DNA from: an uncultured Gammaproteobacteria bacterium
Lineage (GTDB): Bacteria > Patescibacteriota > Microgenomatia > CAZETR01 > Amesbacteraceae
Assembly: GCA_964356225.1 (NCBI GenBank)
Contig: CAYHGA010000001.1
Location: 29,573 to 93,572, forward strand
Direction of reading: 5' to 3'
DNA: 64,000 nucleotides
Shown here: in pieces, positions 5,085 through 64,000 of the stretch
Numbering within the stretch: position 1 is the stretch's first letter
How the letters are laid out: the number at the start of each line of letters is the position of its first letter
Notes under the pieces: generated by a model
Databases searched by the model: none
The model's input: the letters and a program-made list of their open reading frames with translations, nothing else
What the model was told of the DNA's origin: nothing
Translations under genes and position numbers: made by a program

Positions 5085-5735
5085 TTAATTTACCAGTTCG
5101 GCGCGGGCGACGAAGCGGCGGAGGTAGGTGCCCAGGGGGACGCAAGTGATAAGGGTGAGCTCGTTTTTATCATAGCGCTGGGCCAGGACTTCGATTTGGG
5201 AAGGGTCGACTTCGGTAGTGTTGCGCACTACATATTTATAGGTCACGCCGTCGTATTGGATGGTAATGGCATCGCCGACTTTAATTTTGGGGAGAGGATT
5301 AAAAATGGAAATGGGGTCATTAGGTTTGTAGAGAGCGGGTAAAGTAGAATGGCCAAAAATAACGGTGTTGCCATAATCTCCAGGAAGGGCCGTGCCAGAA
5401 AAGTGAATGGCATTTTTTTTCAAATCTGTGCCATTGATTTCTACAGGAACATCGCGAAGACCGAGCTTGGGTATAGATAGTGTGTAGTAGCGGACGCGGC
5501 TGACAGTGGGAGTAGAACTGGAAGCAGGAAACCAGGTGGTGGATTGAGTGTAATCTGGAGTGGTGATTCCTAAAACGCTGGCGACAAAAGGTACCGGAAC
5601 CAGGGCAACAGCAGTGGGATCTAAGAGGCGGGGACGAAGACTGAAACTCAACTGAGAAAGGCCAATGGGAACGATGACGCTGACAAGGAGAACTAAACCC
5701 ACTACTACAAGAGAGAGGGAGAGAAAACGGCGCAT
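5085..5735 (-). CDS. Sortase-family transpeptidase
   Basis: N-terminal signal anchor. Catalytic His (IFGHST), TLITC active-site Cys motif and a downstream Arg. 216 aa. Confidence 0.8.
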   Translation of the reverse strand: MRRFLSLSLVVVGLVLLVSVIVPIGLSQLSFSLRPRLLDPTAVALVPVPFVASVLGITTPDYTQSTTWFPASSSTPTVSRVRYYTLSIPKLGLRDVPVEINGTDLKKNAIHFSGTALPGDYGNTVIFGHSTLPALYKPNDPISIFNPLPKIKVGDAITIQYDGVTYKYVVRNTTEVDPSQIEVLAQRYDKNELTLITCVPLGTYLRRFVARAELVN

Positions 5736-10387: not shown

Positions 10388-11057
10388 ATAAATATTGCAA
10401 TATTTTACTCATTTTTTTTGACTTGGATTTAGTCACAATCTCTTTAAATTCTTGCATGTCTGCGGCTGTAAAAACAGTCCAATTAAACCTTGAACCGAAT
10501 AAAAACTCCCGTGTTAACTGGTCAGTTATAAGCGGAGTCAGATATATAAAATCAAACATCGCCTTGGCTGGACTGGCAATTTTGTAAGAGAAATCTCCAT
10601 AGAATCTTTGTGTATACCCCCAAAACAAACCGGGTTTGATATTCCGGTATCTAAAACTCATAAGTTTGCTCTGAAACGTCCTGGTCTTCTTGGTGGTCAC
10701 ATTTGTGATGGTATATACACTTTCTGCTAATATTCCGTAAAGTGCCAATGCGTACTCTAAAGATATATAACTATCCCGCACTATTTCGCATCCAATATAT
10801 CTTGCCAATTCTTCTGGCGCGGATGATTTTTGATACAAAGTTTCGTTTAGATAAAATCCGGGTTTAATTGTATCCAACAAGCCTGCCTTTATGAGAGACC
10901 TAATGCGATAATCCAAAGTGCGGCGGTTGTTACCTAAAAGCACCTCTAGATTTTGCCTGGTAAAAAATGGGGCCGTGCTTTCTGAGATCAGTTTCTTGTA
11001 GTCTATTTCCATATGCACATAATTATATGTGCAACCGGAAACGGAGTCAAGTAGCAA
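10374..11057 (-). CDS. AbiEi-like antitoxin / transcriptional regulator
   Basis: N-terminal wHTH-like region (TRQNLEVLLGNNRRTLDYRIRSLIKAGLL) followed by a C-terminal domain. The probable true start is the ATG of MEIDYKK near 11012. Confidence 0.6.
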   Translation of the reverse strand: MLLDSVSGCTYNYVHMEIDYKKLISESTAPFFTRQNLEVLLGNNRRTLDYRIRSLIKAGLLDTIKPGFYLNETLYQKSSAPEELARYIGCEIVRDSYISLEYALALYGILAESVYTITNVTTKKTRTFQSKLMSFRYRNIKPGLFWGYTQRFYGDFSYKIASPAKAMFDFIYLTPLITDQLTREFLFGSRFNWTVFTAADMQEFKEIVTKSKSKKMSKILQYLYERR

Positions 11058-11099
11058 TTATGTTGCAAATAGGGGTGAGAAAGTAGATAATAGCAAGTA

Positions 11100-12374
11100 A
11101 TGGATCAACTTATTCCAACTATTACGGCAGAACCTCCTAAAACTAACTGGTTACTATTTTTGTTGGTGGGAATAGTTATTTTGAGTATGGGAATTGGGAT
11201 TGGATTATTTTTGGCAAAAAATATTTATCCGCCTTTGCAAAGTCTGCCCGCTTCAACTCCTTCTCCAACCCCAATCGCCGACCCCACCGCCAACTGGAAA
11301 ACATATACAATTGAAAAATTTGGAATCCAATTTAAACTTCCAAGCAAACTAAGCACTCTCGGGGATCTGGATATAAAAGAATGTGCTGGCGAAAAAGGCA
11401 TGGAATTTAGCGCCACACTACCCTCCAACAAATCATCCGGATATCTCATTTCCGTAGTCTATGCGGGAGGAGGATGTGCCGCACATAATCTATTCAGTAT
11501 GGGTGCAGTATCTTCTGATTATGAAGCCGGAAGAAGCAGGAGATTTACCGATACAAATGGGTACGTTTCCAAAACCGGAACATATTATTGCGTTGGCCCC
11601 GGTGCGGTCAGAAATGATGAAGTTCCGAGCCATCTCGCAAAAGAAATGGTTTCTAAAAATGGAGTTACCGTGTTGAGGATCATGGGTGAAGATGAATCCT
11701 ATGGAACTTGGCCAAAACTCTGTACTCCCGGCAGTGGCAAGATAGGAGCCTTAGTTAATCTTTCCAATAATAAAACGTTCCCGGGAATTGCAATCCAAAT
11801 GGATGTGACAGATCAACTTTCAGAAAACCTATTTGACCAAATCCTCTCCACGTTTAAATTCACGGGTGTCTCGGTCACTCCAACGCCAACTCCAACTCCA
11901 ACCATCACGCCAACCTCTAATCCAAAGACAACATATATCGTTCCCACTAGCTGGAAAAGACTTACCACCCAAAGTGGCCTGAATCTGTGTTTGCCACCCA
12001 AATGGGAAGTTGAGGCCTACGACCACCTTATTTTTAATCGGGATGAGGGATACAAACCGAGCATTACCTATATTACAAACCTTCCTTATTCAGGTGGCTC
12101 ACGGCGTGAAGCGTATTTTGCCTATTGGGTACAGGAATATCCGGATGTAAAGCAATTAGTTTCCGTAGCGGACACCGATATAAACGGAAATTCCGCCCTG
12201 ACTATCTATCCGGCGAACTCTTCTGACCCCAAGACATCCCCCGAGGGGTTAACGGTAGTCTGGTTTTCCGCCGGAAAACTATGGAAAGCGGGCCTGTCTG
12301 GTTGGAATATGACCAACGCCTCGCAAACGTCTTTTCTGAAGGACTTTTACACGATGATTAGCTGTAGCTTCTAA
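11100..12374 (+). CDS. Membrane-anchored secreted protein, paralog A (signal anchor, DPTANWKTYT motif, TP linker)
   Basis: N-terminal TM helix, TPSPTPIADPTANWKTYT, an internal TPTPTPTPTITPT linker and the QILSTFKF motif shared with the 13324..14019 protein. Confidence 0.6.
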   Translation: MDQLIPTITAEPPKTNWLLFLLVGIVILSMGIGIGLFLAKNIYPPLQSLPASTPSPTPIADPTANWKTYTIEKFGIQFKLPSKLSTLGDLDIKECAGEKGMEFSATLPSNKSSGYLISVVYAGGGCAAHNLFSMGAVSSDYEAGRSRRFTDTNGYVSKTGTYYCVGPGAVRNDEVPSHLAKEMVSKNGVTVLRIMGEDESYGTWPKLCTPGSGKIGALVNLSNNKTFPGIAIQMDVTDQLSENLFDQILSTFKFTGVSVTPTPTPTPTITPTSNPKTTYIVPTSWKRLTTQSGLNLCLPPKWEVEAYDHLIFNRDEGYKPSITYITNLPYSGGSRREAYFAYWVQEYPDVKQLVSVADTDINGNSALTIYPANSSDPKTSPEGLTVVWFSAGKLWKAGLSGWNMTNASQTSFLKDFYTMISCSF

Positions 12375-12421
12375 GTAACCGGCACTCACTAATCTGTCGT
12401 AGTTTGGGGTATAATTGAGAT

Positions 12422-12667
12422 ATGAGCTCTACCAGACCATATTTTTTGTGGGATTATGATTTGACCGAGAATGACGTCAGGAGGATTCTGCGTGGGGAAA
12501 ATCAAACAGACAAGATTTGGATTATGTCGAGGATTCTGGAAAGCGCCAAGTTTGAAGATGTTTGGAAATATACAACCTTGTCTGATGTCAGATCGATGAT
12601 GCCGATATTAAAAATCAAAAAACCTATCCGTCAAGCCTGGGAACGGGCCTTAACAATATGGCAGTAA
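12422..12667 (+). CDS. Small protein resembling the C-terminal domain of the AbiEi-like antitoxin (truncated antitoxin?)
   Basis: YFLWDYDLTENDVRRIL...MSRILE aligns by eye with FLFGSRFNWTVFTAADMQEFKEI...MSKILQYL at the C-terminus of the 10374..11057 protein. A TATAAT sits directly upstream, and the ORF overlaps the following NTase gene by 10 nt. Confidence 0.4.
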   Translation: MSSTRPYFLWDYDLTENDVRRILRGENQTDKIWIMSRILESAKFEDVWKYTTLSDVRSMMPILKIKKPIRQAWERALTIWQ

Positions 12668-13320
12668 ATTACGTACTCCAAGACAAATTTTTGAATTTAT
12701 TTTTTTTCGGCCGTTTTGCAGCGGATTTTTATCTGACGGGCGGTACAGCTCTGGTACGATTTTATTTTCAGCACCGCGAAAGTGTAGATTTGGATTTGTT
12801 TAGCCAAAATCAACAGTTGGATTTTTCGGCTGTAAATTTAGAGGTTGAACGTATTGGCCGTGAGTTAAAACTAATAACTATCAAACAAGTGACCACGAAC
12901 ACTTTTTTGCAATTTATATTTGAAAGTACAGAGGGAGATACATTGAAGGTGGATGTAGTTAAGGATATTCCGGTACATTTTGGAGAGTTTAAACAAGAGG
13001 GTAAAGTGAGATTGGACTCATTGGAAAATATAGGTTCAAATAAAATCACAGCTATTTTTGGCCGGACTGATCACAAAGATTTTATTGATTTATATTACAT
13101 TTTAAATAAGACAGATTTTACATTCGAACATTTGGTTTCGCTGGCTAAGCAGAAAGATTTGGGGTTAACCGAATTTTATCTGGCCAATTCGATTGATCAA
13201 ATTGAGCAGACTTCACAAATGCCGGTCTTACTAAAACCACTTGATATAAAGAAATACAACGAATTTTACAAAAAACTTTCCCGGGATTTATTTTTAAAAA
13301 TCAAACCAGAAGATAAATAA
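12658..13320 (+). CDS. AbiEii-family nucleotidyltransferase, second copy
   Basis: FYLTGGTALVRFYFQHRESVDLDLF carries the same GGT..R.S.DLD signature. Confidence 0.7.
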   Translation: MAVNYVLQDKFLNLFFFGRFAADFYLTGGTALVRFYFQHRESVDLDLFSQNQQLDFSAVNLEVERIGRELKLITIKQVTTNTFLQFIFESTEGDTLKVDVVKDIPVHFGEFKQEGKVRLDSLENIGSNKITAIFGRTDHKDFIDLYYILNKTDFTFEHLVSLAKQKDLGLTEFYLANSIDQIEQTSQMPVLLKPLDIKKYNEFYKKLSRDLFLKIKPEDK

Positions 13321-54377: not shown

Positions 54378-56018
54378 CTAATTTTGATCCGGGGCGGAGA
54401 GGATGACGGGCTCGGCGGGGACGGGAGATAAGATGTTTTTCCACTGGGCAATTCGTTTAATTAAATCGATGAAAGTTGCTAATTCGGGAATTTTGAAAAA
54501 CGCAGACAGGGAAAAATAAACCGATAAGCCAATGAGGGTAGTGATCCCCGTCAAGAGAAGTAAAGGAAGAGTACGGGTGGTATCAAAAACAAATTGATCC
54601 AGTAAACGCATGGGTATCCATAGGAAAAGGCCGGTGACGAGGCTGGTAAAAATCATTTTGGCCAGAGGGATAAAAACTTTATGCGGGGCCACTGAAACAC
54701 GGTGGTATAACAGCCAGGAAAGAACCAGAGTTTCCAAAATGGCGGTGGTAGAGATGGCTACCGCTATTCCCAGAATTCCCCACCCTAACCAGGTGACGGC
54801 TAATATGGATAATGTCGAACTAAAAATGGCGGCGATTATGCCGACTATAAGCGGGGTGCGGGTATCGTGCAGGGCATAAAAACCGCGAATGACTAACTGC
54901 ATGACGGCGTAAAAAGCGGCCGAAGCACAGAGAATGGCCAGTGTTTTCCCGGTCAAAAGAGTGGCGGTCCAAGGAAAAGTTTTGGCACCAAAAATGATAC
55001 GGACGATGGGGATCCTCAAGATAATGAACAAGGTGCTAAGAGGAAGGGCCATAAAAGCGATTTGCAAAAAGGAGGAAACCAGAGTGCGCCTGAATTGGTC
55101 CAGATCGGAATGGGCCGCTTCTTTGGAAAGCTGGGGAAAGGCGGCCTGACCAATGGTAACTCCAAAGAGAGAAGTGGGAATAGTAAAAAGGAGGCGGGAA
55201 GCATTAAGAAGGGACAAAGAGCCGGAAGCCAGAAGCGAGGCTAGAGTGACGGCCACAAATTGCTCTATTTGATCAATGCCCAGAGCCAGGACTCGGGGGG
55301 GCATAAGACGGCCTATTTCACGAACCCCGGGGTGGAAAAAATCCAAAGATAAAGAGGGGCGAAAACCTAGGCGGAAAGCCAAAGGCAATTGGATAAACAT
55401 ATGCAAAATTGCTCCCAGGACAACTCCCAAGGCCGGACCGAGGATGCCCAGGGTGGGAGAAAGGAAGACGATGCCGGCGATAATCCCCAGGTTGTAGGCT
55501 ACGGGGGCCAAGGCAGGGATAAGAAAACGCTGGTGAGATTGGATGATACCGGTCAAAAAACCGGAAATGGAAAAGAATATTTGAGCCACAAGCATGATCC
55601 GCAAAAGTTGAACCATGACACTAATTTGGGAAACGGTGAAGCCGGGAGCAATCAGCCGAGAGAGGGGGTATGCAAATATAAAGATGACGGTCGAGAGAAG
55701 GGTAAAAACAAGAATAATCAGATTCATGGTGGTGGAGGTCATAGCCCAGGCTTCTTTTTCGTTCTTGGCCAGATACTTGTTAAAGGTGGGAATAAAGGCG
55801 GCAGAGAGGGAACCGATGACTAGAAGCTGAAAAATAGTATCCGGGATAACAAAGGCGGCATAGTAGACGTCAAGCAGCGGGGATTGAGTGCTAAAAAAAG
55901 AGGAAATCAGCAGGCGGGTCTTGACCAAACCAATGAGATGAGACAGGCTATAAGTGGCCATGATAATGAAGGCGGCAGAAAGAATGTGGTTTTGGCGCCG
56001 GAAGAAAATATCCCGCAT
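54378..56018 (-). CDS. murJ: Lipid II flippase MurJ/MviN
   Basis: A 546-aa polytopic protein with a MOP-superfamily MurJ pattern. The true start may be the internal Met of MATYSL. Confidence 0.85.
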   Translation of the reverse strand: MRDIFFRRQNHILSAAFIIMATYSLSHLIGLVKTRLLISSFFSTQSPLLDVYYAAFVIPDTIFQLLVIGSLSAAFIPTFNKYLAKNEKEAWAMTSTTMNLIILVFTLLSTVIFIFAYPLSRLIAPGFTVSQISVMVQLLRIMLVAQIFFSISGFLTGIIQSHQRFLIPALAPVAYNLGIIAGIVFLSPTLGILGPALGVVLGAILHMFIQLPLAFRLGFRPSLSLDFFHPGVREIGRLMPPRVLALGIDQIEQFVAVTLASLLASGSLSLLNASRLLFTIPTSLFGVTIGQAAFPQLSKEAAHSDLDQFRRTLVSSFLQIAFMALPLSTLFIILRIPIVRIIFGAKTFPWTATLLTGKTLAILCASAAFYAVMQLVIRGFYALHDTRTPLIVGIIAAIFSSTLSILAVTWLGWGILGIAVAISTTAILETLVLSWLLYHRVSVAPHKVFIPLAKMIFTSLVTGLFLWIPMRLLDQFVFDTTRTLPLLLLTGITTLIGLSVYFSLSAFFKIPELATFIDLIKRIAQWKNILSPVPAEPVILSAPDQN

Positions 56019-56030
56019 GTGTGATATTAT

Positions 56031-56279
56031 ATGGCGGATATGCCTATAACTAAAGGTGCAATCAGGAAGCTACGGGCGGATAAAGGTAAGGCCCGGGTTA
56101 ATAACGTAATAAAACGGGCGTTTAGGGAATCCGTGTCTAAGATGCGCAAGCATCCGACCGTAAAAAATTTGGTGGAGGTCTACCGGAAACTGGACCGGGC
56201 GGCTAAATCTAAAGTGATTCACAAGAATAAAGCGAATCGGTTGAAATCTAGACTGTCCAAGTTGCTGAAAAAGAAGTAG
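56031..56279 (+). CDS. rpsT: 30S ribosomal protein S20
   Basis: 82-aa S20. Confidence 0.9.
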   Translation: MADMPITKGAIRKLRADKGKARVNNVIKRAFRESVSKMRKHPTVKNLVEVYRKLDRAAKSKVIHKNKANRLKSRLSKLLKKK

Positions 56280-56296: not shown

Positions 56297-58114
56297 ATGC
56301 TACGAAAAGGATTTGTTGGTATCGAGTTGGCAGTAATGGTGGTGATGGTAATGGGGCTGATCGCTGGAACAAAGCAAATTTCAGATCTCACCCAAAAGTT
56401 CCTAATCAAGAACAAAGCGGCTGGACAAGTTACTTGTTCTTCAAATTGCGCATCTGGTTCCAGTGGTGAATATAATTTCTGCTACAACGAATGCGTTCCG
56501 GGGAAAACCGGTTACTCCCGGCCCATTGGTTGTAATTCCAGTGGTTGGGTGAGAGGAAATGATCAAGTTGATTCGGCTTGCGGCTCCGCACCCGCGCCTA
56601 CTCCGGTATCCCCAGGTCCCACTCCGACTGGCGCTCCAACTCCAGGTGATGGACCTTACGGTAAAAATTGGGGGAATACGTGTAACGGTATAAATTATGG
56701 GGGCTGCAGTCCTGGTTACCGTTGCGTAGGCAATCTTTGTAGTGGATATAACTGTTTTAAGCTTGATTCGTCATGTGGGGGAGTACCACCGTCAACTATC
56801 TGTCAACCTGGCCATTGTGATTACGGAGGATCAAACCTAGGCTGGAGAAAGTGCAATGGCAACGGCACGGCTTACGACGGAAATAAATACACAGATAATA
56901 CTTGCTCCACTGTCGCCGGTGGAGGACCTACCCCAACTCCAAAATCCGGTGCGACACCTACGCCAAGACCTACTCCGACTCCACCTTCGACATGTGCTCA
57001 ATATTACAGTCTCGCTGATTGTAATAGTGCTTCATGCTCTTGGTATAACTGTGGGGGCAAGTCTCCGGGCTGTTTCCCGGGTGGGACGTTGATGGCGGTT
57101 GCCTGTCCCACCACCCCAACCCCAACGCCGACCCCAAGACCTACTCCAACCCCGACTCCTGTTGTGGATTGTACCAAGATTCCCTACTCTGACTGTAATA
57201 CTTCACTTAACAATGGAAACTCTCGGTGTGCTTGGTACAACTGTTATGATGGAACAGCTGGCTGTTTTTCTAAAGGTACGCCAGATACTGTTGCTTGTCC
57301 AAACCTCGCTCCAACGCCAACCCCAACGCCAACCCCAAGACCTACTCCCACCCCGACCCCAAAACCCACGCCCACTCCGACTCCAACCCCTAAATCCGAA
57401 CCTAGATATAATTATGATCTCTCTACTTATCGCTGTGTTGAGGCTCAAGATGGATATTATCCTTCTTTCTCCGCTTGTGAACAGAACTATGCTGTACTAA
57501 ATGTGCCATACTGTAAGTCGGATGGGTTTCTGTGTTATGCAGCAAATACCGATGGATCTTGTAAGACTACAATACAATGTTATCCAGGAACTGTTTGCAC
57601 AGGCTCACCAAGATTCGCTAAATGTGCTCTCGCTTCTTCTCCCCCCACTCCCACTCCAACTCCGACGCCTGCTGCTGAGAATAACGGCTGGACTGGTCAA
57701 TACTGTGCTGGAGGGCTCCTTGGATCTCCGAAGAGTATCTGCAAACCCGGTCTGCCTCCTACATGCGAGCCCTGCAATAGTTGCTCCGGAAATTACGGAT
57801 ACGCCGTAGGCGCTGGTTGTTCTCCAATTTCAACCCCAACTCCAACCCCAACTCCAACTCCTACGCCCGTCGCTGGCCAAGGCTGGACTAATCAATACTG
57901 CACAGGAGGGTCTTCGAGAAGTATCTGCACTTTTAGTTTCCCTCCTACATGTTCCCCTTGCAACAGTTGTTCCGGAAATATTGGGTATGCCGTGTGCAAC
58001 GGTTCTTCGCTAATTCCTACGACCGATTCTACTCCCGCGGTTGCTCCTAAGACCCCTCGTCCTTTCTACTGCATAAACTTCTTTGGCTGGAACCCATGTG
58101 GAGTTGTCCAGTAG
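56297..58114 (+). CDS. Type IV pilin-like protein with a large C-terminal region of Cys-rich modules separated by (TP)n linkers
   Basis: Class III signal peptide MLRKG|FVGIELAVMVVMVMGLIAG (cleavage-site Gly, Phe at +1, Glu at +5). The following ~580 aa carry more than 60 Cys in repeated modules (DC..C.WYNC...GCF..GT...VACP twice; GW..QYC.GG......C.....PPTC.PCNSCSGN.GYAV twice) joined by TPTPTP runs. The ORF track's 56279 start is a GTG overlapping the rpsT stop. Confidence 0.6.
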   Translation: MLRKGFVGIELAVMVVMVMGLIAGTKQISDLTQKFLIKNKAAGQVTCSSNCASGSSGEYNFCYNECVPGKTGYSRPIGCNSSGWVRGNDQVDSACGSAPAPTPVSPGPTPTGAPTPGDGPYGKNWGNTCNGINYGGCSPGYRCVGNLCSGYNCFKLDSSCGGVPPSTICQPGHCDYGGSNLGWRKCNGNGTAYDGNKYTDNTCSTVAGGGPTPTPKSGATPTPRPTPTPPSTCAQYYSLADCNSASCSWYNCGGKSPGCFPGGTLMAVACPTTPTPTPTPRPTPTPTPVVDCTKIPYSDCNTSLNNGNSRCAWYNCYDGTAGCFSKGTPDTVACPNLAPTPTPTPTPRPTPTPTPKPTPTPTPTPKSEPRYNYDLSTYRCVEAQDGYYPSFSACEQNYAVLNVPYCKSDGFLCYAANTDGSCKTTIQCYPGTVCTGSPRFAKCALASSPPTPTPTPTPAAENNGWTGQYCAGGLLGSPKSICKPGLPPTCEPCNSCSGNYGYAVGAGCSPISTPTPTPTPTPTPVAGQGWTNQYCTGGSSRSICTFSFPPTCSPCNSCSGNIGYAVCNGSSLIPTTDSTPAVAPKTPRPFYCINFFGWNPCGVVQ

Positions 58115-58159: not shown

Positions 58160-58687
58160 ATGGCTGCCCTGGGTAGTATTAATTTGTTGCCTAAGTCTGA
58201 TTTTGAGGCTTCTTTCTGGGGGAAATTTTTGAAGTGGGGACTGACCACCGGGAGATACTTAGTGATTTTGACGGAGCTAGTAGTAATCGCCGCGTTTTTA
58301 TCCAGATTTAAATTGGATTGGGATTATGCGGCAGTAAGAGACAGAATTAATGGAAAAAGAGCGGTGTTGACGGCGATGGCCGAAACGGAAAGAAGATTTA
58401 GATTGGCCCAGAGCAGGCTGGGAGCAGCCGGAAAAATTATGGGGGGGCAATTAGAAGCGGCGAAGGAAATCGAAAAAGTGACAGCCAAAGTTCCCGCGGG
58501 AGTGGTGTTAACTGATGTGACCGTGTCTGACAAAATGATAACGGTTTCGGGAAGCGCCAGCAGTGCGGATAAATTTGGAATCTTTTTGTCCCGTTTGACG
58601 GCAAGCGGTGACTGGAAAAGCGTAGGGGTGAAAAGTTTATCAGATGACGGACAAGCGGGATTTAAATATTTAATATGGCTCAATTAG
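58160..58687 (+). CDS. PilN-like pilus assembly protein
   Basis: N-terminal INLLP signature, a single TM helix and a periplasmic domain. Confidence 0.6.
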   Translation: MAALGSINLLPKSDFEASFWGKFLKWGLTTGRYLVILTELVVIAAFLSRFKLDWDYAAVRDRINGKRAVLTAMAETERRFRLAQSRLGAAGKIMGGQLEAAKEIEKVTAKVPAGVVLTDVTVSDKMITVSGSASSADKFGIFLSRLTASGDWKSVGVKSLSDDGQAGFKYLIWLN

Positions 58688-59235
58688 ATTACAAAAGCAG
58701 TTTGGCCCAATACCGCAGATATTTGGCGGCGGTGCGAGAGCAACCCTTATTTGCCGCCAGTTTGGGGTTGGTGCTGTCTCTGACGTTAATAATAATTCTG
58801 GTGTTAGCAGCCCTGCGGCCAACTTTAGTGACTATTGCCTCACTGCTAGGAAATATTCAGCAACAAAGCGATGTGGAGAAAAGACTGGACAAAAAAATTG
58901 CAGAGATAACTGCGGCCCAAGCAGAGTATTTGAAAAACGAATCCAGGTTGGGTGTGCTGGATGAAGCATTGCCGGTGGGCCAGAAATATGCGGCCTGGGG
59001 AATGAGATTGGAGACCGCCGCTTCTGAAAGCGGTGTGAAAGTGATGGAATGGTCGCTTCTGGATGGAAAAGATTTCAGTGTTTCTTTAAGCGGAGACGTG
59101 GCGGGATTGAAACGGTTTTTGGCCACTATGGAAAACTTGCGGCGGTTGGTGGAAGTCAAGAGTATACAGTTTGCTAAAGAAAAAGAACTGACGTTAGTTG
59201 TGAAGGGAGTCTTAAAATCATATGAAGAAAAATAA
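58675..59235 (+). CDS. PilO-like pilus assembly protein
   Basis: TM helix plus a coiled-coil and PilO-like periplasmic domain. It overlaps the PilN-like gene. Confidence 0.45.
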   Translation: MAQLDYKSSLAQYRRYLAAVREQPLFAASLGLVLSLTLIIILVLAALRPTLVTIASLLGNIQQQSDVEKRLDKKIAEITAAQAEYLKNESRLGVLDEALPVGQKYAAWGMRLETAASESGVKVMEWSLLDGKDFSVSLSGDVAGLKRFLATMENLRRLVEVKSIQFAKEKELTLVVKGVLKSYEEK

Positions 59236-59422
59236 AACTGACCGGCAAGTTGTGGTAGTGCTGGTTATGACTTTGATTACGCTGGTAGCCTGGGTGGGGT
59301 TTGAAGTTTACCGGACATATACTCTGGTAAACATCCCCCCAGTTTCCGACAAACTGCTGCTGGAGTTGTCTCCCACGCTGGATATTTCCGTGCTGGAAAA
59401 ATTAGAAAGCAGGACACCATGA
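59222..59422 (+). CDS. Small membrane protein in the pilus locus
   Basis: 66 aa with one TM helix, overlapping both neighbouring genes. Confidence 0.35.
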   Translation: MKKNKTDRQVVVVLVMTLITLVAWVGFEVYRTYTLVNIPPVSDKLLLELSPTLDISVLEKLESRTP

Positions 59423-60690
59423 GAAAAAGAGAGCTGACTATTCCTACAATTTTGGGAGTTCTGGCTATAATCGGAGGGCTGATAGGGGGAGTAGTGTTAT
59501 TGAACAAACCATTAAGAGGTTTGGTGGGGGCTAGCCCGGAAGAAACTCCAAAAGAAGTCAAGATTACTAATATTTCCGACACCAGTTTTGTGGTGAGCTG
59601 GGTGACAGACAAATCCACTTCCGGTTATGTCCAATATAACGGAGGATTGGTGGTGTCCGATGACCGGGATCAAGAACGAGGGGAAATCGGAAACTATTTT
59701 ACCCATTTGGTGACTATTAAGGCGCTCAAAGCGGAGACGGGGTACAGTTTTAAAATAGGATCGGGGAAAAGTTTGTATGATAATTCGGGGAAGTTGTATC
59801 AGATAACAACGGCTACCGCAGTAAGCCAGGTTCCGGTAGCGGACGTGGCTTATGGGCAAGTGGTTACAGCCAGCGGTGATCCGGTAGAGGGAGCAATTGT
59901 ATATTTGTCCCTGCCAGGAGCGGTTTCCCAGGCAGCACTAACTAAGTCTTCGGGGTCATGGGTAATTCCAATGGCGGTTGCCAGAAGCGCAGATCTAACT
60001 GGTTATGCGGCTTATGACCGGGAAAAAGAAAAGATCGAAATAACGGTTCAAGCCGGAGCATTGGGAACTTCTGTGGTCAATACTACGACGGGGACGACTA
60101 AGCCGGTGGCAAATATAACTTTGGGGGAAAACAGAAGCGGAGAAACACCGGCACCTACACCGGTAGCGGGATCAAAGTTTTCCCCGGGAGCGCTGGCCAC
60201 TGATACGGGGGAGACTCTGGTGATTTTGACTCCTAAATCCGGGGAAAAAGTTAATTCCCAGAAACCGGAAATTATGGGTAAGGCCCCGGCGGGAAGCAAA
60301 GTGACTATTAAAGTGGAATCTTCCCAATTATTTACCGAGACTTTAACTGCGAGCGAAAATGGGGACTGGACTTATGGAGTTCCGGAAGACTTGGAACCGG
60401 GTGAGCATACGATAACAGTAACTTCGATTATTGATGGGGTAACAAAAACTATTAAGAAAAGTTTTGTGGTGGAAGCGGCGGGAGTTTCCAATGCCCCCGC
60501 CAGAGTGGCCACTCCGTCAGCAACACTAAAACCCACTCCTAAACCGACGCCCACAATTGCTCCAAGGGTGGCTTACCCGTCTACTGAATCCGGGACGCCC
60601 ACGTCCGGTAACTTGACTCCGACTTTAATTTTACTCATACTGGGAGCGGGGCTGGTGTTAGCTGGTGCCACTTCATATAGAAAAATCTAA
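59419..60690 (+). CDS. Membrane-anchored surface protein with FN3-like and Ig-like domains and a C-terminal TM anchor
   Basis: N-terminal signal anchor; KEVKITNISDTSFVVSWVTDKSTSGYVQY is FN3-like; a later Big-like region; C-terminal LTPTLILLILGAGLVLAGATSYRKI. Confidence 0.45.
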   Translation: MRKRELTIPTILGVLAIIGGLIGGVVLLNKPLRGLVGASPEETPKEVKITNISDTSFVVSWVTDKSTSGYVQYNGGLVVSDDRDQERGEIGNYFTHLVTIKALKAETGYSFKIGSGKSLYDNSGKLYQITTATAVSQVPVADVAYGQVVTASGDPVEGAIVYLSLPGAVSQAALTKSSGSWVIPMAVARSADLTGYAAYDREKEKIEITVQAGALGTSVVNTTTGTTKPVANITLGENRSGETPAPTPVAGSKFSPGALATDTGETLVILTPKSGEKVNSQKPEIMGKAPAGSKVTIKVESSQLFTETLTASENGDWTYGVPEDLEPGEHTITVTSIIDGVTKTIKKSFVVEAAGVSNAPARVATPSATLKPTPKPTPTIAPRVAYPSTESGTPTSGNLTPTLILLILGAGLVLAGATSYRKI

Positions 60691-62012
60691 TGGATCCTGT
60701 CCAAGACCCGAAAACTAATTTACCGCCAACGATTATGCCAACGACTGAAGACGTTGTTCCTACTCCCCCACCTACTCCCATATCCCCTCCCTCACCCGTC
60801 CCGATAATTGAGCCCCCAATAGGTCCGGCGCCGGTTCCGGCGAGCGACAGTGGCGACAACGCCCAGATTATAAAACCAAAGGTTAAATGGGGCAAGGGAG
60901 CGCTGATCGGAAGTGTGGCGGCATTGATGGTGCTGGTGGTGGGGTTGGGTTTTGGGTTGTGGCAGATAAGACAAAATCAAAATATAAAACCTTTAAAAGC
61001 AGGGCTTTGTGATTCCACCTCCCCCAATATCACTTGTGTAATTACTGACAACAAATGCGTCTGGAAACCAGATAATTCAGGGGCCTGTCTGGATAACTGG
61101 TATATTCCGGGTACTGAATATTTTTGCGGTGAAGGAGCTCCTGGGCAAACCATAACTTATGGTTGTACGGATGGATATTATCCGACCAAGGCAACTTGTG
61201 ACGCAAGAGACGGGGGAGTTCAAGGATCTAGCGTATGTCAGGGTTCTAGCGGTGGGCCGACGCCGACGCCGACACCGCCGGGGGCGACGTGTAATTCGAC
61301 AACCACAGCGGAAGTAAATATAAACGGGAGTGGATGGACAAGTAGTAATGGGCTAGTGAGACCGGGAGATAGTGTGCAATTTAGAGCGGCACCGGCTGGC
61401 GGGAGAACTGCGCTGCTACTTAATACCACTGGGCAAACGGGCAGCCAGTGTTCAAGCGACCCGGGAGCAGGGGTTGCATGTCCAGGCGGGCCGGTGTTGA
61501 TGGATAACGGTTGGTGGGGAAACTATGTGGGGCAAACTATAAGTGTGAGTGCGTTTCAATTCGGAAGTAACTGGTACACGTCGCTCGGCGGAAGTTGTGA
61601 AGATAGTTTGAGCTTGACGATTGTGCCTATTGGCCCCACTCCGACGCCCACTCCAACACCAATTTCTACCCCGACCCCCACTCCGACGCCCACTCCAACA
61701 CCAACGCCGCCGCCGGGGCCGAGTTCGCAGTGTCAGAGAATGATAGCTATCCGAGGTACGGAGGAAATTGCTTCGGCCAATTGGGTCACCACTTTACAGC
61801 CCGGAGACGTGGTGGTGTTCAGAGGGTTTGCCAGTGCCAGTAACACTACGGTGACGGCAATTAATTTCTCGATTACTATAAATGGCGGAACTCCACAGCA
61901 AATTCCGGGGACTAATTTTCAGCTGGTGGGGGGCGTGTGGCAAGCGGATACGGGATCGATAACTATTGCAGCCGGAAGTTATTCGGTGGTGGCTACCCCG
62001 ATTTACCCATAA
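60690..62012 (+). CDS. Membrane-anchored Cys-rich surface protein with (TP)n linkers
   Basis: Pro-rich N-terminus, a TM helix, Cys-rich modules, and PTPTPTPP and TPTPTPTPISTPTPTPTPTPTPTPPP linkers. Confidence 0.45.
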   Translation: MDPVQDPKTNLPPTIMPTTEDVVPTPPPTPISPPSPVPIIEPPIGPAPVPASDSGDNAQIIKPKVKWGKGALIGSVAALMVLVVGLGFGLWQIRQNQNIKPLKAGLCDSTSPNITCVITDNKCVWKPDNSGACLDNWYIPGTEYFCGEGAPGQTITYGCTDGYYPTKATCDARDGGVQGSSVCQGSSGGPTPTPTPPGATCNSTTTAEVNINGSGWTSSNGLVRPGDSVQFRAAPAGGRTALLLNTTGQTGSQCSSDPGAGVACPGGPVLMDNGWWGNYVGQTISVSAFQFGSNWYTSLGGSCEDSLSLTIVPIGPTPTPTPTPISTPTPTPTPTPTPTPPPGPSSQCQRMIAIRGTEEIASANWVTTLQPGDVVVFRGFASASNTTVTAINFSITINGGTPQQIPGTNFQLVGGVWQADTGSITIAAGSYSVVATPIYP

Positions 62013-62586
62013 TTTTATGGATGCAAAACCACAAATTAATGTTATCAGACCAAAGGGCGGTTTTAGCCTGCCGAAACTGCCTAAACTCAACCCGGTGATG
62101 ATAGTGGTGGCTACGGTGATTTTAGCTCTGGTGTCGGTAATTTCGGCCATACTGCTGTATCAGAAAAAACAAGAGCCAGTGGCGCCGAATGTGGGCGTGC
62201 CCAGCCGGGCAGCGGAAGGAACAGCGTGTGTGGCCAACTTTATAATATCTGCTTCCCCAACTCCTACACCAACTGAAGGACCAACGCCTACCCCAACACC
62301 GACACCCACGCCAACCCCCACGCCGGGATCCGGGAAGCCAAATAATTGTGGTGGAACTTGTGGATCAAATGCCAATTGTGAAGGCGGGCTGTTCTGCTAT
62401 GACACCGGAGTGCAAAAATATTGCCGGAACCCGCAAAATCCAACCAGCGAGACGTGTGCTGGAGCGGCTCCAACACCTACTCCAGCGGCATTGCAACAAG
62501 CTGGAGACGTGATGGGGACGTGGACTGTTTCAATCGCGGGAGCGATATTACTAATACTTGGATCTGTGGTAATGTTTGCGCTATAA
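61966..62586 (+). CDS. Small Cys-rich membrane protein with a TP linker and a C-terminal TM anchor
   Basis: The probable start is MDAKPQ near 62017. It has a TM helix, PTPTPTEGPTPTPTPTPTPTPTPG, the module CGGTCGSNANCEGGLFCYD...C and a C-terminal hydrophobic anchor. Confidence 0.4.
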   Translation: MQPEVIRWWLPRFTHNFMDAKPQINVIRPKGGFSLPKLPKLNPVMIVVATVILALVSVISAILLYQKKQEPVAPNVGVPSRAAEGTACVANFIISASPTPTPTEGPTPTPTPTPTPTPTPGSGKPNNCGGTCGSNANCEGGLFCYDTGVQKYCRNPQNPTSETCAGAAPTPTPAALQQAGDVMGTWTVSIAGAILLILGSVVMFAL

Positions 62587-62589
62587 AAA

Positions 62590-63786
62590 TCAGCGCCAGG
62601 AGGGAAGCCAAAAGTATTGATCGACCAAGGTTTTAGGAAGGTGAATGCCTACCCACATTGGATAAAAATAGATAAAGGCTCCCAGAATTAAGATACTAGA
62701 TGTTATGGTGGCCCATCTGGGCAATTTAGAAAGAGTATAGGCCAAAGCAATGCAGAGAAAAGGGACCGAGGGAAGATAATGATAGAGAAACATAATGCGA
62801 GGAGCGCGGGCCCAGGGGAGCCAGAAAGTTAAATATCCAATCACGATAATTCCCAATTTCCAATCACGTTTTTTCAAGGCGTGATACGCTGTAAAAACAA
62901 TGGCCGGGATGCCCAGCCACCAGAGAATGGGGTTGCCCATACCGTAAATGTTGGCGATTTTATCGCCGGCGTAATCTACAAAGTACCAAACCGGCCGGAG
63001 CATAACAGGCCAAGTCCACCAGGAGGATTGGTAAGTATGAGTGGCTTTGAGGCTAGTGTTGTACCACCACATTTGATTTTGTAATTCCAGGAAATTTTTC
63101 CAGGAGCCGCCGAGAATAAAATATTGAGAATATGAAAGAACATATAAAACTGCAGGAATAAAAATCAACGAAATAAAAATAGAGGGCCATTTGCGAAAGC
63201 GGGTAATATTCTGTAAACCAATCCATGTTCCAAAAACAGCAATGGCGTAAAGGCCTGTCCATTTGGTAGCAATCAAGAGACCGAGAGAAAACGCGAGAGG
63301 GATTAGGTTATAGGTTCTAGGTTTTAGTTGATAGCGAATAAAGGTCCAGAAAGATAGCAGAATGAAAAAGGTGGCGACAATGTCGTTCATATTAATACGC
63401 GATGAAGTAAGAAGCAGGCCATCGAGGGCCGCCAGGGCGGCTGCGAAAAGAGCCCAACGCTTGGAGCTTAGTAAATCACTGGAAATTAAATAAACAAGAT
63501 AAACAACGCCGGTGCCGATTAAAACGTTGGCGATGCGCCAGCCGAAAGAATTGGGGCCAAAAATGAGAATACCGGTGGCGCCCATTAACTTAGCAAGTGG
63601 TGGGTGTGTCCAACCATAAGCGGTACCCGGAGGGGTGGTATGAAACCATTCGTAGGCGTCTTTGTTACCTTTAGCCATTTCCAGAGTAGTAAATGCGTTA
63701 TAGACCTCGTCGAAATAAAAGTTGGGCGGGTAGGAAATATTGAAAACGCGGGTTATAAAAGTAAAGGCTAGAATTAGGCCGAGCAT
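62590..63786 (-). CDS. PMT-family (GT39/PMT_2-like) polyprenol-phosphate-sugar glycosyltransferase
   Basis: The N-terminal loop-1 motif FDEVY and the HPPLAKL block are characteristic of protein O-mannosyltransferase-type GT-C enzymes. It is polytopic, 398 aa. Confidence 0.6.
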   Translation of the reverse strand: MLGLILAFTFITRVFNISYPPNFYFDEVYNAFTTLEMAKGNKDAYEWFHTTPPGTAYGWTHPPLAKLMGATGILIFGPNSFGWRIANVLIGTGVVYLVYLISSDLLSSKRWALFAAALAALDGLLLTSSRINMNDIVATFFILLSFWTFIRYQLKPRTYNLIPLAFSLGLLIATKWTGLYAIAVFGTWIGLQNITRFRKWPSIFISLIFIPAVLYVLSYSQYFILGGSWKNFLELQNQMWWYNTSLKATHTYQSSWWTWPVMLRPVWYFVDYAGDKIANIYGMGNPILWWLGIPAIVFTAYHALKKRDWKLGIIVIGYLTFWLPWARAPRIMFLYHYLPSVPFLCIALAYTLSKLPRWATITSSILILGAFIYFYPMWVGIHLPKTLVDQYFWLPSWR

Positions 63787-63802: not shown

Positions 63803-64000
63803 ATGATAGAGTTGGTTTTGGGGACATTGTTAGGAACTTGGGCAAGTTTCCTGGCGTCTTTGATGACAAAACAGGTTGAGGTATGGCCGTTTGTGGCAGT
63901 ATTTGCCGCGTGCACAGGGTCTCTCCTTGTACGTCTGCGGCCGAACAAGGAAAGACCCTCTTCTTGGTTGTTTTGGCTGACAATCGTGGGGTGGGGGGCG
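63803..64000 (+). CDS. Partial ORF for a membrane protein (runs off the window)
   Basis: Hand translation from the ATG at about 63803: MIELVLGTLLGTWASFLASLMTKQVEVWPFVAVFAACTGSLLV..., hydrophobic with no stop before the window end. Confidence 0.3.
   Translation, partial: MIELVLGTLLGTWASFLASLMTKQVEVWPFVAVFAACTGSLLVRLRPNKERPSSWLFWLTIVGWGA

What the first reader, a model, noticed from the sequence alone, without database searches (positions are those of the whole stretch)
62590..63786. PMT/GT39-like protein O-glycosyltransferase encoded tail-to-tail with genes for Thr-Pro-linker surface proteins
FDEVY...HPPLAKL marks a GT-C protein-O-mannosyltransferase-type enzyme. In Actinobacteria, PMT homologs O-mannosylate Thr/Pro-rich stretches of secreted proteins. 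This gene ends 3 nt from the stop of a (TP)n-rich surface-protein gene, and the locus is full of TPTPTP linkers. The inference is that the enzyme glycosylates these linkers.
Basis: inference. Interest (0 to 1): 0.6.

Follow-up and report, generated by a model that had tools for sequence, protein, structure and literature searches.

The report
Compact protein O-glycosyltransferase beside Thr-Pro surface proteins
A groundwater ultra-small (CPR, Microgenomates) bacterium encodes a minimal but apparently intact relative of the protein O-mannosyltransferases of fungi and Actinobacteria, and in about 60 related species the gene sits next to genes for wall-anchored proteins with Thr-Pro stalks, its probable but untested targets.

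Summary
ORF 62590-63786 (-) encodes a 398-aa polytopic membrane protein. It passes the Pfam cut-offs for PMT, PMT_2 and the GT39-specific PMT_4TMC. Its AlphaFold model (pLDDT 91.7) matches fungal Pmt1/2/4 (TM 0.79-0.83) much better than ArnT or oligosaccharyltransferases. The four active-site residues proven essential in M. tuberculosis Pmt are kept (D26, D135, R330, F333). Its stop codon lies 3 nt from the stop of a convergent TP-linker gene.

The functional inference gains comparative support but stays unproven. In 63 of 69 informative species-level Microgenomates loci, the PMT gene lies beside the same cluster: PilN, PilO, a small protein, an fn3/Big_13 protein, a Cys-rich protein and a T/P-rich protein. 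The T/P-rich family ends in sortase-type LPxSG/LPxAG signals.

No lipid-phosphate-sugar synthase lies in the 64-kb window. A GtrB/PgfS-like GT2 directly follows PMT only in two Curtissbacteria relatives, so the donor sugar is unknown.

A second, unclassified GT-C glycosyltransferase starts at 63803 (+), divergent from PMT. PMT is fused to a GT87-like GT-C in most Woesebacteria-type relatives. An LCP ligase is a conserved neighbour.

Verdict: a new, compact member of a known enzyme kind, with a testable substrate hypothesis. Moderate interest.

The parts
62590..63786 (-). Compact (398 aa) GT39/PMT-family GT-C glycosyltransferase. Catalytic D26-E27 lie at 63706-63711 and HPPLAKL at 63586-63606.
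   Evidence: Pfam PMT, PMT_2 and PMT_4TMC all above cut-off. The only PDB sequence hits are yeast/fungal Pmt1 and Pmt4-type PMTs. AF2 pLDDT 91.7. Foldseek top 7 hits are all PMTs, TMq 0.79-0.83. D26, E27, R130, D135, R330, F333 and H336 are invariant in 39 homologues.
62017..62586 (+). 189-aa T/P-rich surface protein (the ORF can also be read from TTG at 61966). It has an N-terminal TM helix, TP linkers, a small 6-Cys knot, a second TP stretch, then LQQAG plus a hydrophobic C-terminal tail. It is convergent with PMT across a 3-nt gap.
   Evidence: Its family is present in 51 related loci and ends in LPxSG/LPxAG plus a hydrophobic tail.
60690..62012 (+). 440-aa protein with a Pro-rich N-terminus, one TM helix, and a Cys-rich ectodomain carrying three TP linkers (PTPTPT, PTPTPTPT, (TP)7).
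   Evidence: Its family is present in about 45-49 related loci between the fn3 gene and PMT.
59419..60690 (+). 423-aa fn3 / CarboxypepD_reg / Big_13 surface protein with an N-terminal TM helix and a C-terminal PTSGN + TM + YRKI sorting-like signal. It has a short TPKPTPT stretch before the anchor.
   Evidence: Pfam. Sequence. Homologue found beside PMT in 62 loci.
59222..59422 (+). 66-aa single-TM protein that is a conserved member of the cluster.
   Evidence: cluster 9, 48 loci.
58675..59235 (+). PilO-like protein.
   Evidence: Pfam PilO E = 2.8e-4, 21.5 bits, just below the cut-off of 22. Family conserved in 61 loci.
58160..58687 (+). PilN-like protein.
   Evidence: Pfam PilN 29.4 bits, above the cut-off of 22.8. 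Family conserved in 59 loci.
56297..58114 (+). 605-aa modular protein (the ORF can be read from 56279). It has 50 Cys and seven TP linkers, with about 30 Thr/Ser in the runs. Its N-terminus MLRKG|FVGIE resembles a prepilin cleavage site. It is specific to this genome among the loci examined.
   Evidence: No homologue in other loci. No N_methyl Pfam hit.
63803..64000 (+). Start of a roughly 575-aa polytopic membrane protein that runs off the window. It is divergent from PMT with a 16-nt gap. It is an unclassified GT-C-fold glycosyltransferase-like protein.
   Evidence: Translation matches L010 residues 1-66. AF2 pLDDT 93.3. Foldseek hits are STT3/AglB/PglB, DPY19, ArnT and AftA. No Pfam or NCBIfam family. 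Found adjacent to PMT in 27 loci, including a relative with only 32% identity.
54378..56279 (.). Context genes that bound the conserved block: MurJ lipid II flippase (54378-56018, minus strand) and ribosomal protein S20 (56031-56279, plus strand).
   Evidence: Pfam MurJ 5e-77. Synteny.
5085..5735 (-). Sortase gene, the candidate enzyme for anchoring the LxxAG/PxSG-ended proteins. It is distant in the window.
   Evidence: Pfam Sortase 3.8e-25.

Best explanation
The gene encodes an active, minimal GT39-type protein O-glycosyltransferase.

Proposed mechanism: it sits in the cytoplasmic membrane as a roughly 11-helix GT-C enzyme. Its D26-E27 loop, D135 and the R330-x2-F333 loop form a pocket on the outer face. 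It takes a hexose from a polyprenol-phosphate-sugar made on the inner face by a GT2 enzyme encoded elsewhere. The sugar is mannose by family precedent, but it is unverified. The enzyme transfers the hexose to Thr/Ser hydroxyls in extended, Pro-rich segments of proteins as they are exported.

The most probable substrates are the TP linkers and stalks of the adjacent cluster: the 189-aa LQQAG-anchored protein, the 440-aa Cys-rich protein, the 605-aa pilin-like modular protein, and the pre-anchor segment of the fn3/Big_13 protein. Glycosylation would stiffen these wall-spanning spacers and protect them from proteases.

What is shown: family membership, an intact active site, fold, conserved gene neighbourhood, and the T/P-rich, sorting-signal-bearing nature of the neighbours.

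What is inferred: activity, sugar identity, and that the neighbours, rather than exported proteins in general, are the targets.
For: - Family membership: Pfam PMT, PMT_2 and PMT_4TMC are above cut-off. NCBIfam's best hit is the Pmt model. The only PDB sequence hits are fungal PMTs.
- Fold: the AF2 model has pLDDT 91.7. Foldseek's top 7 hits are all PMTs at TMq 0.79-0.83, against 0.62-0.66 for ArnT and 0.54-0.58 for OST.
- Active site: the alignment to ScPmt1 places query R13, D26-E27, R130/D135 and R330/F333 on ScPmt1 R64, D77-E78, R184/D189 and R649/F652. These equal MtPMT D74, D176 and R441/Y444, which mutagenesis shows to be essential (PMC12331936). All are invariant in 39 homologues.
- Acceptor groove: a beta-hairpin (266-273/276-282) sits where MtPMT has the EL4Cter hairpin implicated in Pro-rich acceptor choice.
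- Neighbourhood: 63 of 69 informative non-redundant loci link PMT to the PilN/PilO/fn3 cluster. 60 are convergent. In 3 only PMT is inverted yet it stays adjacent. This holds down to about 40% PMT identity.
- TP enrichment: ORFs between PMT and the fn3 gene carry TP-type runs in 59 of 146 cases, against 49 of 1113 elsewhere in the same loci (odds ratio 14.7).
- Surface location: the neighbours carry sortase-type C-terminal signals, so their T/P stretches are extracytoplasmic.
- Precedents: Cellulomonas GH6 linkers are O-mannosylated by GT39 (PMC11727336). Streptococcal GtrB plus GT-C enzymes glycosylate S/T-rich disordered regions and protect them from proteolysis (PMC12041528).
Against: - There is no biochemical evidence for any CPR PMT. 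No paper was found that mentions both Patescibacteria and O-mannosyltransferase.
- The genes are convergent, so they are not co-transcribed.
- The conserved block also holds housekeeping genes (S20, MurJ, LepA, HrcA/GrpE/DnaK). Adjacency may therefore be inherited synteny.
- The TP-run enrichment counts members of two or three homologous families. The p-value overstates independence.
- In six informative loci (Daviesbacteria, Curtissbacteria, Gottesmanbacteria-type) the PMT sits in a different context, without these neighbours.
- No GT2 donor synthase lies in the 64-kb window or in the Pil-linked loci.
- The NCBIfam Pmt equivalog score is 117 against a cut-off of 800, so this is not an orthologue of actinobacterial Pmt.
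- The N-terminal P/T-rich segment of the 440-aa protein is probably cytoplasmic. P/T richness alone therefore does not mark a target.
Confidence: 0.58

Rival explanations
1. General exported-protein O-glycosyltransferase with no special tie to the neighbours. Like actinobacterial Pmt, it would modify many exported proteins with disordered S/T/P-rich segments. Its position next to the TP-linker genes would then be inherited synteny in streamlined CPR genomes.
For: The conserved block includes S20, MurJ, LepA, HrcA, GrpE, DnaK, UvrD and FemAB. The orientation is convergent. In six loci PMT is elsewhere. A fourth TP-run protein lies 50 kb away at 11100-12374.
Against: The number and identity of ORFs between the fn3 gene and PMT vary from 0 to 7 while adjacency is kept. 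In one lineage only PMT is inverted and it still stays in place. Even under this reading the neighbours would remain probable substrates.
Confidence: 0.22
2. Cell-envelope glycopolymer or lipoglycan synthesis. The PMT-like enzyme would act with the adjacent unclassified GT-C, the GT87-like GT-C (fused to PMT in relatives) and the LCP ligase. Together they would build or attach a wall polysaccharide, with a lipid or glycan acceptor rather than a protein.
For: A second GT-C gene is divergent from PMT. GT87/PMT_2-like GT-C is fused to PMT or lies directly upstream in most relatives. LytR_cpsA_psr lies within 0-4 kb in 57 of 86 non-redundant loci (43 of the 63 Pil-linked ones), with MurJ and FemAB nearby. 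In Actinobacteria, GT-C enzymes that use polyprenol-P-sugars build lipomannan and arabinan (established knowledge; Emb and Aft structures appear among the fold hits).
Against: All characterised GT39 enzymes act on protein Ser/Thr. The model matches PMTs far better than Emb/Aft/PimE-type enzymes. The peptide-groove elements are kept: F25, H250, the hairpin and F333.
Confidence: 0.13
3. Inactive or decayed remnant. A truncated PMT (398 aa, against about 500 aa or more in Actinobacteria and 750-800 in fungi) that no longer catalyses transfer.
For: It is short, with a very short first helix and no MIR domain. It scores far below the NCBIfam equivalog cut-off.
Against: The length and start are shared by dozens of homologues at 100% coverage. 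44 columns are invariant, including all catalytic residues. The model is a confident, complete GT-C fold.
Confidence: 0.03

Closest known systems
Actinobacterial protein O-mannosyltransferase Pmt (GT39; M. tuberculosis Rv1002c, S. coelicolor Pmt, C. glutamicum and Cellulomonas GT39)
   Same: Same Pfam architecture (PMT plus PMT_4TMC) and no MIR domain. Same DE motif, EL2 Asp and EL5 R-x2-aromatic motif. A hairpin sits in the loop before TM8. The expected acceptors are Pro-rich, disordered Ser/Thr segments and interdomain linkers of exported proteins.
   Different: About 100-120 residues shorter, with almost no cytoplasmic N-terminus and a shorter EL4. It scores only 117 bits on the NCBIfam Pmt equivalog model (cut-off 800). 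It comes from a different phylum (CPR/Patescibacteria). The donor synthase is not identified. The WW-like signature matches only partly.
Fungal and animal PMT/POMT (Pmt1-Pmt2, Pmt4; PDB 6P25, 9I5K, 9E61)
   Same: Best structural matches (TMq 0.79-0.83) and the only PDB sequence hits. The transmembrane catalytic core and the FLxHYLP loop are conserved.
   Different: No luminal MIR beta-trefoil domain. Half the size. No evidence on dimerisation. The donor would be a bacterial polyprenol-phosphate sugar, not Dol-P-Man.
Streptococcal GtrB + GT-C (PgtC2) and Pgf (PgfS/PgfM1/PgfE/PgfM2) O-glycosylation of Ser/Thr-rich disordered regions and of sortase-anchored adhesins
   Same: A monoderm-type envelope. 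A lipid-phosphate-sugar made by a GtrB-like GT2 is used outside the membrane by GT-C enzymes to decorate S/T-rich linkers of membrane- and wall-anchored proteins, protecting them from proteolysis (PMC12041528). The GT2 next to PMT in Curtissbacteria relatives scores best on the PgfS model.
   Different: Those GT-C enzymes are not GT39 and the sugars are Glc or GalNAc. No such GT2 is seen in this window.
ArnT (GT83) and oligosaccharyltransferases (STT3/PglB/AglB)
   Same: GT-C fold and a lipid-phosphate-linked donor. Pfam PF02366 and PF13231 also cover ArnT-like proteins.
   Different: Clearly weaker fold matches (TMq 0.54-0.66). No PDB sequence hit at E <= 1. No C-terminal periplasmic domain. 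PMT_4TMC is present instead.

Membership tests
GT39 protein O-mannosyltransferase (PMT) | N-terminal PMT domain (PF02366) above the Pfam gathering score | tested here: met
   67.1 bits against 22.7, residues 5-218
GT39 protein O-mannosyltransferase (PMT) | C-terminal four-TM PMT_4TMC domain (PF16192), which separates GT39 from ArnT-like GT83 | tested here: met
   91.6 bits against 32.4, residues 229-397, covering the full profile
GT39 protein O-mannosyltransferase (PMT) | Asp-Glu motif in the first extracytoplasmic loop (ScPmt1 D77-E78, MtPMT D74-E75) | tested here: met
   D26-E27 aligned to ScPmt1 D77-E78. Invariant in 39 homologues.
GT39 protein O-mannosyltransferase (PMT) | Second essential Asp in loop 2 (MtPMT D176, ScPmt1 D189) and the R-x2-Y/F motif in loop 5 (MtPMT R441/Y444, ScPmt1 R649/F652) | tested here: met
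   D135, R330 and F333 aligned and invariant. Their roles are taken from PMC12331936.
GT39 protein O-mannosyltransferase (PMT) | GT-C fold whose closest solved structures are PMTs | tested here: met
   AF2 pLDDT 91.7. Foldseek ranks 1-7 are all PMTs at TMq 0.79-0.83. ArnT scores 0.62-0.66 and OST 0.54-0.58.
GT39 protein O-mannosyltransferase (PMT) | Luminal MIR beta-trefoil domain (eukaryotic PMT1/2/4 subfamilies only) | tested here: not met
   No MIR hit and only about 40 residues in that loop. Bacterial Pmt enzymes also lack it, so this excludes only the eukaryotic subfamilies.
GT39 protein O-mannosyltransferase (PMT) | EL4 C-terminal beta-hairpin with a WW-like signature that selects Pro-rich acceptors (MtPMT) | tested here: inconclusive
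   A hairpin at 266-273/276-282 is present, with P265-x-W267, Y281 and W289/W290-x3-P294. The spacing differs from the published motif. No MtPMT sequence was available to align.
Actinobacterial Pmt equivalog (NCBIfam NF058602) | Whole-protein score above the curated equivalog cut-off | tested here: not met
   117.1 bits against a cut-off of 800. It is a family member but not an orthologue-level match.
GT39 protein O-mannosyltransferase (PMT) | A polyprenol-phosphate-mannose synthase (Ppm1/DPM1-type GT2) in the same genome | not testable with these tools
   None in the 64-kb window or in the Pil-linked loci. A GtrB/PgfS-like GT2 directly follows PMT in L090 and L036 only.
GT39 protein O-mannosyltransferase (PMT) | Transfer of mannose to protein Ser/Thr | not testable with these tools
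   Needs biochemistry or glycoproteomics.
ArnT / GT83 | Best profile or fold match to ArnT, plus a C-terminal periplasmic domain | tested here: not met
   No ArnT model among the NCBIfam hits. No PDB sequence hit. Foldseek ranks ArnT at 11 and 20.
Oligosaccharyltransferase (STT3/PglB/AglB) | Best match to OST, with a C-terminal soluble domain carrying WWDxG | tested here: not met
   TMq 0.54-0.58 with rmsd 9-13 A. The protein ends after the last TM helix.
Archaeal Agl23 (TIGR03663) | Score above the curated cut-off | tested here: not met
   37.8 bits against 126.25

The most novel reading that the evidence does not exclude
The PMT is one component of a conserved, Microgenomates-wide surface-appendage module. 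A PilN/PilO-like pair and a small membrane protein would assemble sortase-anchored, disulfide-rich proteins on T/P stalks. A dedicated set of up to three GT-C enzymes would glycosylate these: PMT, a GT87-like partner that is fused to PMT in most Woesebacteria, and a wholly unclassified GT-C family. An LCP enzyme would link them to the wall. This would be a glycoprotein attachment organelle specific to these episymbiotic-type bacteria. The GT39 enzyme might use a non-mannose donor.
Probability: 0.2. Interest if true: 0.75.

Novelty: new member of a known kind. Interest (0 to 1): 0.45.

Why it matters
Protein O-mannosylation by GT39 enzymes has been studied experimentally in bacteria almost only in Actinobacteria. 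CPR/Patescibacteria are largely uncultured, depend on cell-surface contact with hosts, and their surface biology is mostly unknown.

A minimal 398-aa PMT keeps every catalytic residue. It is a compact template for structure-function work on the family.

The conserved pairing with sortase-anchored T/P-stalk proteins gives a concrete enzyme-substrate hypothesis. It can be tested by heterologous expression without culturing the organism.

The side findings point to a richer extracytoplasmic glycosylation system in these bacteria than their small genomes suggest. These findings are an unclassified GT-C family next to PMT, and GT87-like-PMT fusions.

Tried and rejected
- **Longer N-terminus or frameshift.** Rejected. 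There is an in-frame TAG directly upstream, and homologues of 398-408 aa align over 100% of the query.
- **First neighbourhood sample.** Three distant homologues (L006-L008) suggested that the TP/Pil linkage was confined to close relatives. The 80-locus scan overturned this. Those three belong to a minority context.
- **Search for a Ppm1/DPM1-type GT2.** Pfam scans of the window's larger ORFs, apart from the ribosomal-protein stretch (~35.9-47.2 kb), found none. The L090 GT2 hit nothing else. A database search with that GT2 returned 8000 relatives, but none could be tied to a contig that carries a Pil-linked PMT. The result is inconclusive.
- **Prepilin nature of the 605-aa protein.** The KG|FxxxE-like motif is there, but there is no Pfam N_methyl hit. 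I left this as a remark.
- **Other features of the locus.** Rfam scan of 54-64 kb: nothing. The promoter and terminator scan of 62-64 kb was no better than shuffles. No tRNA in the window.
- **AFDB fold search.** The library was unavailable.
- **Literature.** No paper in the library links CPR/Patescibacteria with protein O-mannosyltransferase.
Full report
**1. What is there**

The window is a housekeeping stretch of a Microgenomates-type CPR genome. It carries rpoB, alaS, ftsK, RNase J, PNPase, IF-2, NusA, EF-G, EF-Tu, DnaK/GrpE/HrcA, LepA and MurJ. The ORFs at 35.9-47.2 kb, which look like a ribosomal-protein operon, were not scanned. The exact PMT protein occurs on contigs from Hainich groundwater metagenomes. 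The closest named genome is Candidatus Amesbacteria GW2011_GWC2_45_19, at 78% identity.

The ORF at 62590-63786 (-) is real. It encodes 398 aa and has a stop codon directly upstream of its ATG. Dozens of homologues of 398-408 aa cover 100% of it, so the short N-terminus is genuine.

Its TGA lies 3 nt from the TAA of the convergent gene that ends at 62586.

**2. Identity of the enzyme**

- Pfam PMT_4TMC, PMT and PMT_2 are all above their gathering scores (91.6, 67.1 and 44.1 bits). PMT_4TMC is the GT39-specific half.
- NCBIfam's best hit is the Pmt model. The score is 117 bits against an equivalog cut-off of 800. It is therefore a family member, not an orthologue of actinobacterial Pmt.
- The only PDB chains hit by sequence are fungal PMTs: S. 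cerevisiae Pmt1 and Pmt4 and C. thermophilum Pmt4.
- An AlphaFold2 model built from 39 homologues is confident (pLDDT 91.7, pTM 0.93).
- Foldseek puts seven PMT chains first, at TMq 0.79-0.83. Archaeal, yeast and bacterial oligosaccharyltransferases follow at 0.54-0.58, and ArnT at 0.62-0.66.

**3. Active site**

The phmmer alignment to ScPmt1 gives these equivalences:

| Query | ScPmt1 |
|---|---|
| R13 | R64 |
| D26-E27 | D77-E78 |
| R130 / D135 | R184 / D189 |
| R330 / F333 | R649 / F652 |

The 2025 MtPMT study equates ScPmt1 D77, D189 and R649/F652 with MtPMT D74, D176 and R441/Y444. It shows by mutagenesis that all four are needed for mannosylation (PMC12331936).

All of these positions are invariant in the 39-sequence alignment, as are H250, H336 and others.

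The same paper attributes the Pro-rich acceptor preference of MtPMT to an aromatic cradle and a beta-hairpin in the C-terminal part of loop EL4. The model has a hairpin at 266-273/276-282 in the equivalent place, inside the W/Y-rich stretch SSWWTWPVMLRPVWYFVDY...NIYGMGNPILWW. The published WW-like spacing is only partly matched, so I count that feature as inconclusive.

Compared with MtPMT, the protein lacks about 48 N-terminal residues and about 60 residues between D135 and H250. It is a minimal PMT core.

**4. The neighbours**

Upstream on the plus strand lie seven genes:

| Coordinates | Product |
|---|---|
| 56031-56279 | Ribosomal protein S20 |
| 56297-58114 | 605-aa protein with 50 Cys and seven TP linkers |
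| 58160-58687 | PilN-like |
| 58675-59235 | PilO-like |
| 59222-59422 | 66-aa single-TM protein |
| 59419-60690 | fn3/CarboxypepD_reg/Big_13 protein ending PTSGN + TM + YRKI |
| 60690-62012 | 440-aa protein with one TM helix, a Cys-rich ectodomain and three TP linkers |
| 62017-62586 | 189-aa protein: TM helix, TP linkers, a 6-Cys knot, a further TP stretch, LQQAG and a hydrophobic tail |

Only one other ORF in the 64 kb has such TP runs (11100-12374). The linkers use mixed codons.

On the other side of PMT, 16 nt from its start and divergent, a gene begins at 63803 and runs off the window. In the same genome (L010) it encodes 575 aa. It has no Pfam or NCBIfam family. Its model (pLDDT 93.3) is a GT-C fold whose best matches are STT3/AglB/PglB, DPY19, ArnT and AftA, at TMq about 0.5. 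The PMT is therefore paired with a second, unclassified GT-C enzyme.

**5. Comparative genomics**

My first three distant samples (L006-L008) showed PMT in other contexts. A scan of one genome per species returned 80 more loci, all Microgenomates: Amesbacteria, Woesebacteria, Beckwithbacteria, Curtissbacteria, Gottesmanbacteria and unnamed Patescibacteria. I called ORFs and ran BLAST clustering on all loci.

- 63 of 69 informative non-redundant loci link PMT to the PilN/PilO/fn3 cluster. 60 are convergent. In 3 only PMT is inverted, yet it stays in place. This holds down to about 40% PMT identity and 35% MurJ identity.
- Between the fn3 gene and PMT there are usually two ORFs. One is a Cys-rich protein of 300-570 aa. 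The other is a T/P-rich protein of 150-300 aa (T+P fraction 0.21-0.39).
- TP-type runs occur in 59 of 146 of these intervening ORFs, against 49 of 1113 other ORFs in the same loci (odds ratio 14.7, Fisher p about 1e-31). These ORFs belong to two or three homologous families, so they are not independent events. The honest reading is that the families sitting next to PMT are characteristically T/P-rich.
- The small family ends almost everywhere in LPxSG or LPxAG plus a hydrophobic tail, preceded by a T/P/A-rich segment. This is the layout of a sortase substrate with a wall-spanning stalk. A sortase gene is in the window at 5085-5735.
- In 43 of the 63 linked loci, PMT is the C-terminal half of an ORF of about 800 aa. 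The N-terminal half is a GT87/PMT_2-like GT-C. Elsewhere that gene is separate and lies directly upstream (L002, L007, L029, L044, L090).
- An LCP (LytR_cpsA_psr) gene is present in 57 of 86 non-redundant loci (43 of the 63 linked ones), 0-4 kb from PMT on the side away from the cluster.

**6. Donor**

No GT2 of the DPM1/Ppm1/GtrB type is among the window ORFs scanned with Pfam.

A tblastn probe over the window and all loci (1.6 Mb) hit only L090 and L036, both Curtissbacteria in the non-Pil context. There a 328-aa GT2 with C-terminal TM helices directly follows PMT. Its best NCBIfam models are streptococcal PgfS (276 bits) and ArnC (175 bits), both below their cut-offs. This places it in the polyprenol-phosphate glycosyltransferase family with unknown sugar specificity.

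A database search with this GT2 returned 8000 relatives. None could be tied to a contig that carries a Pil-linked PMT.

The second refutation criterion, no Ppm1 in the genome, therefore could not be tested. Mannose is an assumption resting on family precedent.

**7. Mechanism and rivals**

The best-supported reading (about 0.58) is an active extracytoplasmic protein O-glycosyltransferase that decorates Thr/Ser in Pro-rich linkers and stalks of exported proteins. The adjacent cluster proteins are the prime candidates.

Precedents:
- Cellulomonas GH6-CBM2 linkers are O-mannosylated by GT39 (PMC11727336).
- MtPMT prefers Pro-rich sites.
- Streptococcal GtrB plus GT-C enzymes glycosylate S/T-rich disordered regions and thereby protect them from proteolysis (PMC12041528).

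Rivals:
- A general glycosylation enzyme whose position is inherited synteny (about 0.22).
- A role with the other GT-Cs and the LCP in a wall glycopolymer (about 0.13).
- An inactive remnant (about 0.03, disfavoured by the conservation).

One counterpoint is that the first 66 residues of the 440-aa protein are P/T-rich but precede the TM helix and a Lys-rich patch. They are probably cytoplasmic and out of reach.

**8. Novelty and score**

Databases already label such CPR proteins 'phospholipid carrier-dependent glycosyltransferase' or 'dolichyl-phosphate-mannose-protein mannosyltransferase'. GT39 is reported in more than 3,800 bacterial genomes (PMC11727336). The gene is therefore a new, unusually compact member of a known kind.

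I found no paper on protein O-mannosylation in CPR.

What is new here is the conserved pairing with a PilN/PilO-plus-sortase-substrate cluster, the GT87-like-PMT fusions, and an unclassified GT-C partner. A specialist would find the core inference expected rather than surprising, but it is directly testable. Interest 0.45.

Noticed in passing
window 63803-64000 (+), continuing beyond the window (L010:2718-4445, minus strand in locus coordinates): Start of a roughly 575-aa polytopic protein, divergent from PMT across a 16-nt gap. It has no Pfam or NCBIfam family. Its AF2 model (pLDDT 93.3) is a GT-C fold nearest to OST, DPY19, ArnT and AftA. D90 and H94 (GDWAGH) are invariant. It sits next to PMT in 27 species-level loci, and relatives also occur outside CPR (for example Nitrolancea).
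   Followed up: yes
window 56297-58114 (+): A 605-aa protein with 50 Cys and seven TP linkers joining repeated small Cys-rich modules. Its N-terminus MLRKG|FVGIE-LAVMVV resembles a type IV prepilin cleavage motif, and it sits just before PilN/PilO. No N_methyl Pfam hit, and no homologue in the other 90 loci.
   Followed up: partly
window 62017-62586 and 59419-60690; loci L012-L091: The T/P-rich family next to PMT ends in LPxSG/LPxAG plus a hydrophobic tail without a basic end. In the window lineage this is LQQAG/LTQAG. The fn3/Big_13 protein ends PxSGN + TM + YRK. These are probable non-canonical sortase signals. A sortase gene lies at 5085-5735 (-).
   Followed up: partly
L020-L091, e.g. L027:3713-6076, L032, L058: In 43 of 63 Pil-linked loci, PMT is the C-terminal half of an ORF of about 800 aa whose N-terminal half is a GT87/PMT_2-like GT-C. 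In other loci the two genes are separate but overlap by 3-69 nt. This is a Rosetta-stone link between an initiating enzyme and a possible extending enzyme.
   Followed up: partly
L090:11343-12329 and L036:2236-3219: A GtrB/PgfS/ArnC-like GT2 with C-terminal TM helices directly follows PMT in two Curtissbacteria. The gene order there is GT87-like, PMT, GT2.
   Followed up: yes
L009:11775-13097 compared with window 60690-62012: Another Hainich sample carries the same locus with a single nucleotide difference. It splits the 440-aa Cys-rich gene into ORFs of 218 and 178 aa. This could be a strain variant or a sequencing error.
   Followed up: partly
window 9635-13320: Two AbiEii/AbiEi-type toxin-antitoxin modules flank an uncharacterised 424-aa single-TM protein (11100-12374). 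That protein carries the only other TP linkers in the window.
   Followed up: no
window 5735-7819 (-): A 694-aa protein directly upstream of the sortase gene. It has a central Pro-rich segment, one TM helix and a weak Baseplate_J hit (E = 1.5e-4). Function unknown.
   Followed up: no
loci L020-L091 upstream of PMT (e.g. L075:7628-8803, L054:7618-8727, L061:6102-7625): Further polytopic membrane proteins recur near PMT. One is a 391-aa family found in 34 loci, with a weak hit to a putative LA_3751/LA_3752 glycosyltransferase family. Others are PMT_2-like proteins of 369 and 507 aa. The neighbourhood is unusually dense in GT-C-type enzymes.
   Followed up: partly
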